Source of the DNA: Carcharhinus longimanus
Lineage: Eukaryota
DNA length: 64,000 bases
NCBI GenBank assembly: GCA_030264375.1
Contig: JASCQW010000099.1
Location: forward strand, 34,594,597-34,658,596
Direction of reading: 5' to 3'
Shown here: positions 1-54,000 of the stretch, piece by piece
How positions within the stretch are numbered: the stretch's first letter is position 1
How the letters are laid out: each line of letters starts with the position of its first letter
Position numbers: made by a program

Positions 1-3000
1 TAATTTTCAGTGTCATGGAGCTCGTTGATTTTAATTAAAAATTAGAATATCATTAAAACAATATTTGACAGCTAATCCATCTTTAAATACATGGAGGCAA
101 GCTGGGGGAGGGGGTGGAATTCTCCCAAAAAAATCTTGGTGCTGAATTTGTGTGAAAAGTGAAGTAAATCGTGTTGGTTTTTTTCACTGAGAGTTTCAAA
201 ATGAATCTTCCACACTCTGTGCGCTACAGAGGGCACTAGTGTGAATTACATGAAAAATTCAGGGGTGGGGCCTATTCCCACTGAAGACGCTGGAATTCAT
301 GAGCTGAATGGGCCCCCAAACCTGTGCACATCTCTGGGAGATTGCTAAGTAAGTTCTTCCAGCATAAATATCGCTGGCCTCAACACTCTAACCCTACCCC
401 CACCCCACACTACCCCCACCCCACCCCACCCCAGATATTGCTGGCCTCATCGCTGGCCTTTCACTCTGCTCTCCCCTTACCTTACCCCCCAGCTTCCACC
501 TCCCCCCACCTCCCACGGACATTACCCCCTTCCCCTCCTTCCCCTCCACAAGAAAATTGCTGGCTCCCCCATTAGACCTGTTAGGAGAAGGTATAACTTA
601 CTTGAGTTCTTTAGAGAGGGAACCCTTTTGAATATGGTTCCAGGACAGCTTTGGGAGAGATGAAATGTGCTTTGGGAGAGGCAAGATGCCCTTTGAAAGG
701 GATAGGTGCCCTTTGGCATTATTGAAAGTAGACATGAATATACAGAGAATGTGATAAATCCATTGAAACTGTCAAAGTCATTGGAACAGTCAAGGGAGCT
801 GTCCAGGCCTAGAAATTTCCAGCCATTTAAATATGTGAAAAAATTGTCAGTGTTAAAAATAACTATGTATGCAATTTCATTCTGTTCCTTGACATAAGGT
901 TACTGTTATGGGACTAGTGCAATAAAACTGATTTCATTACAGTGGGACAATGAATACAAATGCTTGTTTTTATAAGGGATTAAAGGAAGTAAATGGATTT
1001 TTTATCAACTTTTTTTTTAAACAATGAATTTATCAATAGGGACTGAAGAACTTTATTTAATCTTAGTATGCATCTTGAGATCTGCCCAGGTAGAGAACTG
1101 GATAAATTAACGTGGATGGTGTAAGGGAAAATGGTGAAGGCCAAGGGGGTATTGGAGGCATGAGATGGCATGAATCAGCATTAAATTAGCATAGGAGGCA
1201 TAGAAGGCCAAGATGGAGAGCCATTGATTGACATGAAGGGTCTAAGGGGCGGGGTGGGGGGGGTGTGTGGTGGATGGGTGACACGATATAGCATGGGTCG
1301 ACATTGATGGGCATGAGGAAAGTGATTGGGAGTATGAGCAGTGAGCGCTGGAGGTTTTTCTCTGCTTCATTTTTTTTTCACAGCACAACAACTGCTGGAG
1401 CACTGAAGTGGGCCGTTCTCACATTCCACTGCAAGCAAATCCTGTGGCTGCCTCCAAATTCTTTCCAGGAACAATGAGGATGACTCCATAGAAGCCAGAC
1501 ACTCCCACCCCTACCCTATGCTGGAGTGAAAGTATAAAGATTTGGGGCACTTTTTCAGGAATTAAGCTCACGTAGCCAGGAATCCTCCCAACTCTACACA
1601 GCAAATGCGAGAGTGATAATTCATTTCAATCTATTTATATGGCTAACAACAGGATATTTATTTATTGTTGCAAGTTGATAGACAATTTGCACATTTGAAA
1701 TGCATATGCAGTAAACCTGGAATCATTTTGCAACTATTTCTGGAATCATGTTTGGGGTGTCATGTTATGTCAGACGTGATATACCAAAAGAACAAATGGA
1801 TCATTAAGGTTTCCTGCATCTTCAGTTCTGATTTTCTGCTCGTTCACTTTGAGTGAGGCAACAAGATCCAATTTTTTTTTAAATTCATTACTGGGATGTG
1901 GGCGTCGCTGCAAGGCTAGTATTTATCGCCCATCCTTAATTGCCCTTGAACTGAATGGCTTGCTAGACCATTTCAGAGGGCAATTAAGAGTCAGCTACCT
2001 TGCTGTGGATCTGCAGTCACATGTAGGCCTGACTGGGTAAGAACAGCACATTTCCTTCCCTAAAGGACACTTATGAACCAGATGGGTTTTTCCAACAATC
2101 GACAATGGCTTCGTCATCTGTAGATTCATAATTTCAGATTTTTAAAATTGAATTCAAATTCCACCATCTGCTGTGGCAAGATTCAAACCCAGGTCCCCAG
2201 AACATTAGCTGAAATTCTGAATTAATAGTCTAGTGATAATACCACAAGGCCATTGCCTCCCTTGAAGTGTGTCAAGAAGTGTAAAGATTACAGGGAGTTG
2301 GAATTAAATGCAAGTTTTTAAAGAATTATCAATAATTTTATTCCTTTCAATAAAATATAAAGTGAAATCTGTCAGTCTTACCACTTGGTGATACTTTCCA
2401 ACAGTCTGATGCGGTTTTACTTCTGTTTCTTTATATGCTATAAAGTGAATGAGTGTGTTAATCCTGGGGGAAAAAAGTAAATAAAATAATCAGCACTCCC
2501 ATAATATTGTATTAATTCTTTGTTAATTAAGATACATTTTTATTAATACCTGTGGTACAACATGGTGAGGAACTGAATTCCCAGTAGCCCAGCAAATGAT
2601 GCCAAGAACATGAAACTGAGTGGTTCAATAGTTAGAATTTCATCTTTGGAAAATATACCATTTGGGAGGATTTTGGGGATCTTGATGTGTATCTCTGGAC
2701 CAATTGCTTGTAGGAAAAACGTTGAAATGATCCAAAGAACATTAATGATGAAATACAGAAAAGTTGCCTGAAAGAATGAAAGGGTTTATTCATTATAGGT
2801 TTTTAAAATGTACATAAAGGCAAATATTCCCCCTGAGTACAATGAGTGAATACACATTTCGCAGCAATGTTGTTTTCTTACAGCCTGTCCATGAAAGAGC
2901 TAAAGTAAATCTAATTAATCAGTCCAGGCATTCAATAGGAGCCCCTAATTCACTTTAATCACTGAGAAAGCAGGAACAGAATCTATTGAGATTGGCACCA

Positions 3001-51000: not shown

Positions 51001-54000
51001 GGCCTTTTGGCTAAGATGCAAATGAGATCAAGCCTTGGAGGAGAAGCTATGCCTACTCCAATCAGCTTGGATCATGTAGATCAAGCCCAAGACAGGAGGT
51101 GAGANNNNNNNNNNNNNNNNNNNNNNNNNNNNNNNNNNNNNNNNNNNNNNNNNNNNNNNNNNNNNNNNNNNNNNNNNNNNNNNNNNNNNNNNNNNNNNNN
51201 NNNNGATCAAGCCTTGGAGGAGGAGCTATGCCTACTCCAATCAGCTTGGATCATGTAGATCAAACCCAAGACAGGTGGTGAGAGCCCTGTCCTGTCAGCT
51301 TGGATCGGGAATGTCCCAACTTGTTGGGACTCTGAATTGGCTTTAATTTGAATTGATTGGAATGGAATGAAGTTAAAAAAAAACAGTCTCAATGTTGTAT
51401 TTTTAAGAAGCGCAAGGTTTGGGATATTTTGAGGTAATTCTTTGTACAAAGTGAATCAAAATCTTACTGTGGAAAAATAAGAAAAAGCTGAAAATGCTTG
51501 GTAGGACAGGCATAATCTGTGGAGGTCAAGTTAACATTTCAGATTGAGGACCTTTCATCAAATTCTGCTTCAAAAACCTTACCCCTTGTATTTCATCAGC
51601 CTGATGGATCTGTGTCAACTATGGCTTAGTGATTTCATTCTTCTCTCTGAGGTACGAGGTACTGAGTTCAAACCTCAATGATGTGGAGATGCCGGCATTG
51701 GACTGGGTAAACACAGATTTACCTTTACACTTTAAACTAAAGATTTACACTTAAACCTGGTGTTGTGAGACTTCAAACTTCAAACCAGAGAACTGGGAAA
51801 AAAATCTAGGTGGATACTCCAATGGAGTGCTGTGCTGTCATAGGTACATACCTTTGTGATAATACATTAAACTGAATTCTCTGTTTGCACTCTCAGGTGG
51901 ATGTAAAATATGCCATGGTACTGTTCAAAGAGAAATTATCCTAGTCCCCTGGTCAACATTTATCTCTCAACAAACATTCAAAAATCTAGCTATTTATTTC
52001 ATTGCTATTTGTATTTTTCAAGAAGTATTACATTGATTATAAGATTGCTTTGGGGCATTCTGAGGTCTTAAGAAGTGCTTATATATTGTGATCAATAGAT
52101 ATTTAGCAAAAAAGGCATTATACTACTGTTGTTTAACAAACACTGTAAATTATTTGCAACATGACAAAACTTAAGTTTTTTTAATAATTCCAGGACTATT
52201 TCTCCAAGTATTTACTAACCTTGCTGAGAAAGAGAAATCCCAGCACACAAACTCCAAAGGTAAAGCAAATTATATACTGCAGGAGCAGCACAAATTTCCC
52301 AGTGATTTCTTCTTCATCATTTATTGTTTTCAAAGTAAAAGGATCCCACGTTTTCCTGAAACTAAACGAAAAAATATATAATATATAATAACGCACCCCC
52401 TGTTCTGTGGACTTTAAAGATTGTTCATTGTAAATATAAAATTTGGTAACTTGTTTTAGGTAAAATTGTTTAATATTTTACATAATATTTCAAATATAGC
52501 ACAATAAAGATAATTATTAATAGTTGAAGTAGAGAAGGTAGGAAGGTGGATAGTACATATCAGAATTCGTTTACATCTCAGTGTCTGTTACACATTCTTG
52601 CAAAATACGAAGTTTTCAAATTTGTAAAATTTATTGCAATTAATTTGACTACTGAAGGAAACTGATTATCAGATGGCCAAATATGAGAGTTTTTAATTGC
52701 TTATTGTAATGGAAACGCTTTGCAGTTTTATCAGCCCTTAGTTCTTTTAGAGGCTTCCCCTACACCACGCATTCGGACGTTTCAACTGCACACAGATGCA
52801 AAACGTATTGCTCCAAATAAACACAGTGCTCTCAGATTTGCAATTGCTCTTTTAATTTAGCAAAACAACTCTAAATCCAGACATATAATATCAAGAATTC
52901 ATTGGCATATGACAAATATTTATGTTTCAGAGCATTTTAATGAATTGTTTATGTGTTTCAAACTGTACATCAAGAGCACGTTACAAAAACTTTTTAAAAA
53001 GTTACCTGCTTCGGCGTTGCCTTTCGTGCTCATTGATATCTTGATCCTTATTCTCCATTTTTTCAATAATCACTAAAGAAATATTTACAAGTGTATTCGG
53101 CTAGAATAAGCCAGATACACTGAACTATCTATATATATGCTTTCAAGTTGTCCTTCTAGGTGTGTTCATTTTACGTATTCAGCCACACCTATCTTCACAG
53201 TTATGTCAAAAATAAATTTCTTTTGAAAAACGAATGTAAAGTTTCTTTTGGAAACTATTTGACATAATTAGAGAATATATTTTTTTTACCATTTCCTTAA
53301 ATAATAGAATTTCTCTGACTTGTTAAAATGTTTAGTGGTTGTATGTAATTACTATAACGAAGTTCTCAATGGTCAAAATAAAAAATTAAAATAGTATTTT
53401 ATTGGCCATTATGCAATGTAAGGTGAGAAGTATATATTCACTGGATCTTTTTAGTAACAGTTTCATGAAGTAATCATCCAATTCTATCCATCTGATGTCT
53501 GATTGCTAATCTGAAATCAAGAGTTTAGGTTTATTTGACAAGTTCACCTGCTATGATTGAGTGGGTCAAGAAACTTCAGCCAGGTTGCTACACAATGCTT
53601 TTTCACCAGTTTCTTTGTGTAAATTAAACAGCTGATGTGTGACACGATTTTTCACAATTGTTGGCCCAGCCATGAAAACACATTCATAGCACTGGCCTGT
53701 TTGTTAATGTCCAGATTCAAACCATGTATTTAACTGAAGGGCAATTATAGAAATGATCCTAAAAGTAAGCAAGATCAAATGTCTCACCCCAAATTGAAAT
53801 AAATACAGTTTTTAACAATTCTCTATTATGTCATGTTCTTAGACTACAAGTTTAAAGTTACAATTAAAAATAATGTTTTTGCACTTTGAGCAGTCTTGTT
53901 GAATTCACATTGAACCATAAGAGCATGTAGGGGGTGTGAAAGCAGTTCACTCTCTTAAAGTGGCCTTCATTTGTCTTTAATTTGAATACCTTGCTAAAAA

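What the first reader, a model, noticed from the sequence alone, without database searches (positions are those of the whole stretch)
2382..53058. Intact, full catalytic-domain chitin synthase gene in a (probable) shark genome
Seen in sequence: 18 phase-compatible exons encode 1208 aa without a stop. Every GT2 chitin-synthase signature is present (DGD, QKFEY, GEDRW, QRRRW, SWGTRE), while the surrounding introns are full of decayed transposons, which argues for purifying selection. Established: chitin synthase genes occur in teleosts and amphibians and are absent from mammals, and chitin has been reported in fish gut lining and in the electrosensory ampullae of Lorenzini of chondrichthyans. Inference: this is a functional vertebrate chitin-synthesis locus from a cartilaginous fish and a candidate source of ampullary-gel or gut chitin. 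Several exons (5, 7, 14, 15, 17, 18 and the EDR/QRRRW half of 11) are invisible in the ORF track.
[Added by the scan's program, not by the reader: the finding's places include an assembly gap (unread letters, written N; its length is only estimated) at 7816 to 8794, 11756 to 12733, 18664 to 18763, 20254 to 20353, 20924 to 20989, 28298 to 28307. Whether the letters on both sides are continuous or in frame is not known: test that first.]
Basis: partly seen in the sequence, partly recalled or inferred. Interest (0 to 1): 0.85.

Follow-up and report, generated by a model that had tools for sequence, protein, structure and literature searches.

The report
Shark chitin synthase gene, ordinary orthologue
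This is a shark's copy of the chitin synthase gene that sharks, rays and chimaeras are already known to carry; it looks functional, but it is an expected gene and not a new discovery.

Summary
The minus strand from 53058 to 2382 holds an 18-exon chitin synthase gene. It has 3630 coding bases (1210 codons), no in-frame stop and canonical AG/GT sites at every junction. One of 18 N runs lies in coding sequence: 20254-20353, inside exon 10. As written it breaks the frame. Its two flanks end in the same 9 bases, and both encode the same two reference residues, so it looks like an unmerged contig overlap and not a lesion. The other 17 N runs are intronic or upstream. The last coding exon (about 6 codons plus the stop in orthologues) was not found in the window. 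All catalytic motifs are present. Single exons match Pfam Chitin_synth_2. Named chondrichthyan proteins were found in 13 species, closest Mustelus asterias at 93%. Exon 4 places the window beside Mustelus in a tree that follows the species tree. Window-lineage substitutions avoid conserved columns: 5 of 38 against 46.5% expected, p=1.4e-5. A skate chitin synthase expressed in the ampullae of Lorenzini is already in print. Verdict: a real, probably functional, ordinary orthologue.

The parts
53006..53058 (-). Exon 1 (53 nt). ATG at 53058, encodes MENKDQDINEHERQRRS, donor GTAACT, phase out 2.
   Evidence: 13 of 17 residues are identical to Scyliorhinus P0003.
52220..52361 (-). Exon 2 (142 nt). 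An alternative in-phase acceptor lies 6 nt downstream (first base 52355).
   Evidence: 45 of 47 residues identical to Mustelus.
48566..48745 (-). Exon 3 (180 nt), hydrophobic N-terminal segment.
   Evidence: 59 of 60 identical to Mustelus.
45599..46629 (-). Exon 4 (1031 nt, 343 full codons), the N-terminal region rich in hydrophobic stretches.
   Evidence: 320 of 343 identical to Mustelus. Used alone for the tree.
42793..42882 (-). Exon 5 (90 nt), holds CATMWHET.
   Evidence: The motif is shared by 23 of 26 references.
32503..32676 (-). Exon 6 (174 nt).
29860..30040 (-). Exon 7 (181 nt), holds HLKDK and RHKKRWSQ.
26428..26529 (-). Exon 8 (102 nt), IMYMYYLLGWKL...
   Evidence: 34 of 34 identical to Mustelus.
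24507..24648 (-). Exon 9 (142 nt), holds the DxD motif in LDGDIDF.
   Evidence: Weak Glycos_transf_2 match, E 0.061.
20225..20534 (-). Exon 10, holds QKFEY. It is written as 181 nt + 100 N (20254-20353) + 29 nt. The two flanks share an identical 9-nt end, and the exon is 201 nt if that is an overlap.
13147..13431 (-). Exon 11 (285 nt), holds EDRW and QRRRW.
10511..10690 (-). Exon 12 (180 nt), hydrophobic segment after the catalytic domain.
9224..9575 (-). Exon 13 (352 nt), holds SWGTRE.
6489..6529 (-). Exon 14 (41 nt), VIEEEEVEPRIED. tblastn missed it.
3657..3721 (-). Exon 15 (65 nt).
3362..3472 (-). Exon 16 (111 nt).
2550..2767 (-). Exon 17 (218 nt), C-terminal hydrophobic segments.
2382..2463 (-). 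Exon 18 (82 nt). It ends in phase 0 at a GTAAGA donor. The terminal coding exon was not found downstream.

Best explanation
The locus is the single-copy chondrichthyan orthologue of the metazoan GT2 chitin synthase, from a shark whose closest relative among the references is Mustelus (order Carcharhiniformes). It is most likely a working gene.

Mechanism, from established knowledge of processive GT2 synthases and the solved fungal and oomycete chitin synthases: the cytosolic catalytic domain (exons 5-11) binds UDP-GlcNAc and a divalent cation through the DxD motif (DGD). The Asp of EDR acts as the catalytic base. QRRRW and QKFEY hold the acceptor end of the growing chain. SWGTRE and the flanking membrane helices (exons 3-4, 12-13 and 17) form the channel through which the beta-1,4-GlcNAc polymer is extruded.

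Shown here: the gene structure, the motifs, family membership of single exons, orthology, and constrained substitution.

Inferred: continuity across the N run in exon 10, the missing last exon, expression, enzyme activity, and the tissue role (ampullary canal epithelium and/or gut, by orthology with a skate gene and with teleost genes).
For: 18 exons with canonical splice sites, compatible phases and 0 stops in 1210 codons. Zero length difference from Scyliorhinus at every junction scored, with exactly one split-codon residue between exon rows.

Pfam Chitin_synth_2 on single exons: 35.2, 37.8 and 22.7 bits against a cut-off of 27. Exon 10 alone finds 3 of 3 solved-structure hits that are chitin synthases.

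QKFEY, EDRWL and QRRRW are identical in 26 of 26 references and in the window. SWGTRE is shared with 25 of 26.

The best 13 hits are chondrichthyan, 93% to 61% identical over exon 4. Twelve are named chitin synthase chs-1/2-like, and the Mustelus protein is named 'uncharacterized'. Every exon is 82-100% identical to Mustelus except exon 1, where the Mustelus model has a different N-end.

Tree on exon 4: the window is sister to Mustelus (99/96), and the clade order follows the species tree.

Constraint: 5 of 38 window-lineage changes fall on conserved columns against 46.5% expected (p=1.4e-5). The one change at a gnathostome-invariant column is I to V.

No exon overlaps any within-window repeat.

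Literature: skate LeCHS is expressed in ampullary canal epithelium and chitin is found in the gel (10.1101/687301, main text read).
Against: As written, exon 10 is out of frame (310 nt including 100 N). Continuity rests on a 9-nt identical end and on colinearity with the references, not on read sequence.

No stop codon or terminal exon was found.

The window lineage carries about twice as many amino-acid changes as Mustelus (38 against 20, p=0.025). This could mean some relaxation of constraint or errors in a draft assembly.

Only 3 of the 16 exon pieces scanned singly match Chitin_synth_2, two of them above the cut-off. The other 13 are too short or lie outside the model. Exon 11 alone found no solved structure at E<=0.01.

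No expression data, no dN/dS and no biochemistry could be obtained here. No vertebrate chitin synthase has a solved structure among the hits.
Confidence: 0.88

Rival explanations
1. A recently inactivated gene (unitary pseudogene) whose lesion is hidden in the N run inside exon 10 or in the unseen last exon.
For: The frame is broken as written across 20254-20353. The terminal exon and stop were not found. The window lineage has 38 changes against 20 in Mustelus (p=0.025).
Against: The flanks share an exact 9-nt end, and both encode the same two reference residues with none missing. All 34 visible splice sites are canonical, and there are 0 stops in 1210 codons. Window-lineage changes avoid conserved columns (5 of 38, p=1.4e-5) and are conservative, with a mean BLOSUM62 score of +0.42.
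Confidence: 0.07
2. A GT2 enzyme that makes another product in vivo, such as hyaluronan-like polymers or only short chito-oligosaccharides, and is not a true chitin synthase.
For: The orthologue P0003 also hits hyaluronan synthase 1 (E 9.4e-6). No vertebrate enzyme of this family was assayed or solved in anything I saw.
Against: The best Pfam family is Chitin_synth_2 for three exons. Solved chitin synthases score far better than hyaluronan synthase (2e-16 against 9e-6). SWGTRE, QRRRW, EDR and QKFEY align with the same motifs of yeast Chs1. In skate, CHS expression co-localises with chitinase-sensitive chitin-probe signal.
Confidence: 0.04
3. Contaminant DNA (parasite, prey or fungus) assembled into a shark scaffold.
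For: Chitin synthases are typical of arthropods, fungi and nematodes, and NCBI names the orthologues after nematode chs-1/chs-2.
Against: The closest proteins are all vertebrate and follow the species tree. Their orthologues lie on contigs of 83-321 Mb in other chondrichthyans. The gene spans 50.7 kb with introns up to 10.1 kb that carry the same dispersed repeats as the flank.
Confidence: 0.01

Closest known systems
Predicted 'chitin synthase chs-1/chs-2-like' proteins of chondrichthyan genomes (Mustelus asterias LOC144504729, Scyliorhinus canicula, Cetorhinus maximus, Callorhinchus milii and others)
   Same: Same exon-by-exon colinearity, with zero length difference at all scored junctions against Scyliorhinus. 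Same motifs. Identity over exon 4 ranges from 93% (Mustelus) to 61% (Callorhinchus). The tree follows the species tree.
   Different: The window's own sequence was not among the hits, and the best identity was 93%. The Mustelus model has a 227-aa insert and different ends, seen in 0 of the other 12 models. The window lacks the last about 6 codons.
Little skate LeCHS, expressed in the ampullae of Lorenzini (Phillips et al., 10.1101/687301; main text read)
   Same: A chondrichthyan chitin synthase.
   Different: I have no expression data for the window's species.
Teleost and amphibian chitin synthases (Tang et al. 2015, seen only as cited; salmon chs1a/b, PMC10234404, passages read)
   Same: Same family and motifs, about 36-45% identical over exon 4. 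Gut-biased expression in teleosts.
   Different: Bony fishes and amphibians often have several copies (for example 3 Chanos and 2 Lissotriton entries). Each chondrichthyan species appears once in the list.
Solved fungal and oomycete chitin synthases (S. cerevisiae Chs1 7xs6, C. albicans Chs2 7stl, 7wjm)
   Same: The catalytic core motifs QxFEY, EDR, QRRRW and SWGT align.
   Different: Only the catalytic core is alignable (E 2e-16 for the orthologue). The membrane regions are not recognisably similar by sequence.

Membership tests
GT2 processive chitin synthase (Pfam PF03142 Chitin_synth_2), metazoan type | Match to the Chitin_synth_2 profile above the curated cut-off | tested here: met
   Single exons score 35.2 bits (exon 10, first piece) and 37.8 bits (exon 11) against a cut-off of 27. 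Exon 13 scores 22.7, below the cut-off. The whole spliced product was not scanned. The orthologues P0003 and P0001 score 122 and 118 bits.
GT2 processive chitin synthase | DxD nucleotide-sugar/metal motif | tested here: met
   LDGDIDF in exon 9. All 26 references have LDGD at these columns.
GT2 processive chitin synthase | QxFEY, EDR and Q(R/Q)xRW catalytic/acceptor motifs | tested here: met
   QKFEY, EDRWL and QRRRW are identical to 26 of 26 references. They align with QNFEY, EDR and QRRRW of yeast Chs1 through the orthologue.
GT2 processive chitin synthase | SWGT(R/K) motif after the catalytic domain | tested here: met
   SWGTRE in exon 13, shared with 25 of 26 references. It aligns with SWGTK of 7xs6.
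Metazoan chitin synthase | CATMWHET and HLKDK...RHKKRWSQ(I/V)MYMYY blocks (that these are metazoan signatures is recalled, not from a call) | tested here: met
   Present in exons 5, 7 and 8. Shared by 23, 20 and 22 of 26 vertebrate references.
Metazoan chitin synthase | Multi-pass membrane regions on both sides of the catalytic domain | not tested
   Long hydrophobic stretches are visible in the translations of exons 3, 4, 12, 13 and 17. No topology predictor was run.
Metazoan chitin synthase | Complete open reading frame from ATG to stop | tested here: inconclusive
   The ATG is at 53058 and there are 1210 open codons. There is a 100-N run inside exon 10, and no terminal exon or stop was found.
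Metazoan chitin synthase | Makes chitin from UDP-GlcNAc | not testable with these tools
   This needs expression and product analysis.
Chondrichthyan CHS orthologue group | Groups with chondrichthyan sequences, in species-tree order | tested here: met
   Exon 4 only: sister to Mustelus 99/96, chondrichthyan clade 100/99.
Hyaluronan synthase (class I) | Best profile and structure match to hyaluronan synthases | tested here: not met
   No exon hit a hyaluronan synthase. The orthologue hits HAS1 only at 9.4e-6, against 2.1e-16 for chitin synthase 1.

The most novel reading that the evidence does not exclude
The window's lineage has about twice as many amino-acid changes as Mustelus since their split (38 against 20). 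Orthologue models also disagree at the C-terminal exon (Mustelus and Cetorhinus differ from the YKDHEV end of most). This shark's chitin synthase might therefore be under altered selection, or might use an alternative 3' exon, perhaps tied to a lineage-specific use of chitin. The evidence does not exclude this. Draft-assembly error and annotation noise explain it as well.
Probability: 0.1. Interest if true: 0.35.

Novelty: new member of a known kind. Interest (0 to 1): 0.2.

Why it matters
Chitin made by vertebrates is a fairly recent and still under-studied finding. A clean gene model in another shark gives primers, probes and a knockout target for asking what chitin does in the electrosensory gel or the gut. 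The gene is already annotated in many chondrichthyan genomes, and its expression in skate ampullae is published. This locus adds one more orthologue and no new biology. The practical result is a corrected exon table and a caution: the gene's apparent frame break is an assembly artefact candidate that should be closed with reads.

Tried and rejected
Pfam on the other single exons gave nothing meaningful. Ten exons scanned at E<=1 produced only chance-level hits, and exon 9 gave a weak Glycos_transf_2 match (E 0.061). The exons are too short or lie outside the profile.

Exon 11 alone found no solved structure at E<=0.01.

I searched for the terminal exon in 1-2381 by pattern and by scoring every AG-preceded short frame against the reference tails. 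There was no credible candidate; the best local scores (22-25) were all to the atypical Mustelus and Cetorhinus tails.

tblastn missed the 41-nt exon 14. A short-peptide scan found it.

Transposon identity: only 1 of 10 intronic ORFs hit a Pfam family. I ran no further search on naming the rest.

Rfam at gathering thresholds found 0 families in the window.

dN/dS could not be computed, because no shark nucleotide sequences are reachable. The one open contig collection holds bacteria and archaea only, and the other two were closed.

Contaminant and hyaluronan-synthase readings were considered and rejected (see rivals).

The exons were never joined into one protein for a search, scan or fold. 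As a result, the whole-protein Pfam score, a membrane topology and a 3-D model of the window's own product remain open.

Supplements of the Phillips et al. preprint, which hold the LeCHS probe sequence, were not seen.
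Full report
WHAT IS THERE. The window is vertebrate-like DNA with 18 runs of N totalling 5297 bases. 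tblastn with three named shark proteins (Mustelus P0001, Cetorhinus P0002, Scyliorhinus P0003, all) gave one colinear series of matches on the minus strand from about 52.4 kb down to 2.4 kb. I scored every GT/GC donor and AG acceptor pair near each match against P0003. This gave a single best canonical junction with zero length difference for 15 junctions. The junction after exon 13 failed because a 41-nt exon had been missed. I found that exon at 6529-6489. Exon 1 (ATG at 53058) was read directly from the sequence and matches the N-termini of the references.

The final table has 18 exons, all with AG acceptors and GT donors. There are no in-frame stops, and the total is 3630 nt or 1210 codons. 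An in-phase acceptor 6 nt downstream in exon 2 would explain the difference (inference). The references support the upstream acceptor.

THE GAPS. One of the 18 N runs is in coding sequence: 20254-20353, inside exon 10. Fourteen are in introns and three lie upstream of the gene. As written, exon 10 is 310 nt long, which breaks the frame. The last 9 bases before the run are identical to the first 9 after it. A chance match of that length has odds of about 4e-6 (arithmetic). Both flanks encode the 'GH' that aligns to the same two reference columns. If the two ends overlap, the exon is 201 nt, in frame, reads ...TEGHHFVQYDQ and loses no residue relative to any reference. I take this as an unmerged contig overlap given a conventional 100-N spacer, but it remains an inference. 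No N was filled. Every junction is colinear with the Scyliorhinus protein, so no coding exon can be hidden in an intronic gap.

THE 3' END. Exon 18 ends in phase 0 at a GTAAGA donor. Most orthologues continue for about 6 residues and then stop. I found no such exon in window 1-2381, so the model is incomplete at the 3' end.

WHAT IT IS. Searches were made exon by exon. The exons were not joined for any search, scan or fold. The whole-protein domain score, topology and structure of the window's own product are therefore not available.
- Exon 10 (first piece), exon 11 and exon 13 match Pfam Chitin_synth_2 at 35.2, 37.8 and 22.7 bits, against a cut-off of 27. The other exons scanned are too short or lie outside the profile.
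- Exon 10 alone finds only chitin synthases among solved structures. Exon 11 alone finds nothing.
- The ORF that holds exon 4 found 223 longer proteins. The top 13 are chondrichthyan, 93% to 61% identical. Twelve of them are named chitin synthase chs-1/2-like, and the Mustelus protein is named 'uncharacterized'. After them come lungfish, sturgeon, newts and teleosts at about 36-45%.
- The Scyliorhinus orthologue scores 122 bits on Chitin_synth_2. It hits solved chitin synthases at 2e-16, against hyaluronan synthase 1 at 9e-6.
- The motifs CATMWHET, HLKDK, RHKKRWSQ, LDGD, QKFEY, EDRWL, QRRRW and SWGTRE are all present. QKFEY, EDRWL and QRRRW are identical in 26 of 26 references.

WHOSE IT IS. 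A maximum-likelihood tree was built on exon 4 alone (343 columns, 27 rows). It places the window as sister to Mustelus asterias (99/96), then Scyliorhinus, then Cetorhinus. This group sits inside a chondrichthyan clade (100/99) with Callorhinchus at its base. The gene follows the species tree. Each chondrichthyan species appears once in the hit list, which suggests a single-copy, vertically inherited gene.

IS IT UNDER SELECTION. dN/dS could not be run, because no shark nucleotide sequences are reachable. As a substitute I added each exon as its own row to an alignment of 26 reference proteins. I then polarised differences between the window and Mustelus using six other sharks.
- Of 1132 scored columns, 526 (46.5%) are invariant in chondrichthyans or in all gnathostome references.
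- Only 5 of 38 window-lineage changes fall on those columns (p=1.4e-5). For Mustelus the figure is 1 of 20.
- The one change at a gnathostome-invariant column is I to V.
- A neutrally decaying copy would hit conserved columns in proportion to their number. The window lineage has therefore been constrained for most or all of the time since the split.
- Against this, the window lineage has 38 changes to Mustelus's 20 (p=0.025). Rate variation, mild relaxation of constraint or draft-assembly errors could each account for this.

SURROUNDINGS. 14,548 bases of the window lie in repeat copies found elsewhere in the window, and no exon overlaps any of them. Their identities are 65-83%. The longest pair is about 3.2 kb: intron 5 (37020-40138) against the upstream flank (61012-63984), at 69%. 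One intronic ORF is the C-terminal end of a DDE_Tnp_4 transposase; the other nine ORFs scanned had no family. Many N runs abut repeat copies of 200-300 bp, as expected for a short-read draft assembly. 18-nt minisatellites fill 55.96-58.85 kb. No second gene was recognised in the flanks. Rfam found nothing at gathering thresholds. ARAGORN reports one tRNA-Ile-like sequence in intron 6.

WHAT IS KNOWN. Phillips et al. (10.1101/687301, whole main text read) report chitin in the ampullary gel of skates, sharks and a ratfish. They also report a little-skate chitin synthase expressed in the canal epithelium, and they say chondrichthyan chitin synthase genes will be treated elsewhere. Their supplements were not seen. 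A salmon study (PMC10234404, passages read) shows gut-biased expression of teleost chitin synthases and cites the earlier vertebrate work. Two further literature searches (listings only) turned up no dedicated paper on shark chitin synthase genes.

VERDICT. The two caveats are the N run in exon 10 and the unseen last exon. The locus is an expected orthologue of a gene family that is already annotated across cartilaginous fishes, and its proposed role is already in print. It is real, probably functional, and ordinary.

Noticed in passing
window 55962-56485, 57326-57480, 58205-58845: Arrays of an 18-nt minisatellite (unit about GAGTCTGTGACTGGGAGT; 8.6 to 36 copies, 80-85% matches) upstream of the gene. 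Each array abuts an N run, so the true array is probably longer.
   Followed up: no
window 37020-40138 and 61012-63984; also 35174-35868 and 60685-61375: A dispersed, G+C-rich repeat of about 3.2 kb is present in intron 5 and again upstream of the gene, at 66-69% identity. Its ORFs hit no Pfam family.
   Followed up: partly
window 15214-15618 (-): An ORF matches the C-terminal part of a DDE_Tnp_4 (Harbinger-type) transposase (E 7e-6) in intron 10. It is a decayed transposon fragment.
   Followed up: partly
window 30928-31001 (-): ARAGORN reports a tRNA-Ile(GAT)-like sequence in intron 6, but Rfam's models do not reach the gathering score there. It may be the head of a tRNA-derived SINE.
   Followed up: no
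N runs at 12733, 32265, 41328, 42431, 44507, 49997 and 50153 and the adjoining repeats: Many assembly gaps directly abut 200-300-bp interspersed repeat copies (e.g. 12795-13081, 32043-32264, 41329-41559, 42432-42633, 44509-44725, 49799-49996, 50154-50359). The assembly seems to have broken at repeats.
   Followed up: partly
reference protein P0001 (Mustelus asterias LOC144504729), residues 1-52, 540-766 and the last 57: The closest orthologue's gene model has a 227-aa insert between the counterparts of exons 5 and 6, and different N- and C-ends. These are present in 0 of the other 12 chondrichthyan models and have no match in the window. It is likely an annotation artefact.
   Followed up: partly
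window 52355-52363 (-): Two in-phase AG acceptors lie 6 nt apart at the start of exon 2 (tttag|tttcag|G). The upstream one reproduces the conserved 'SF' of the orthologues. Alternative use would drop two residues.
   Followed up: partly
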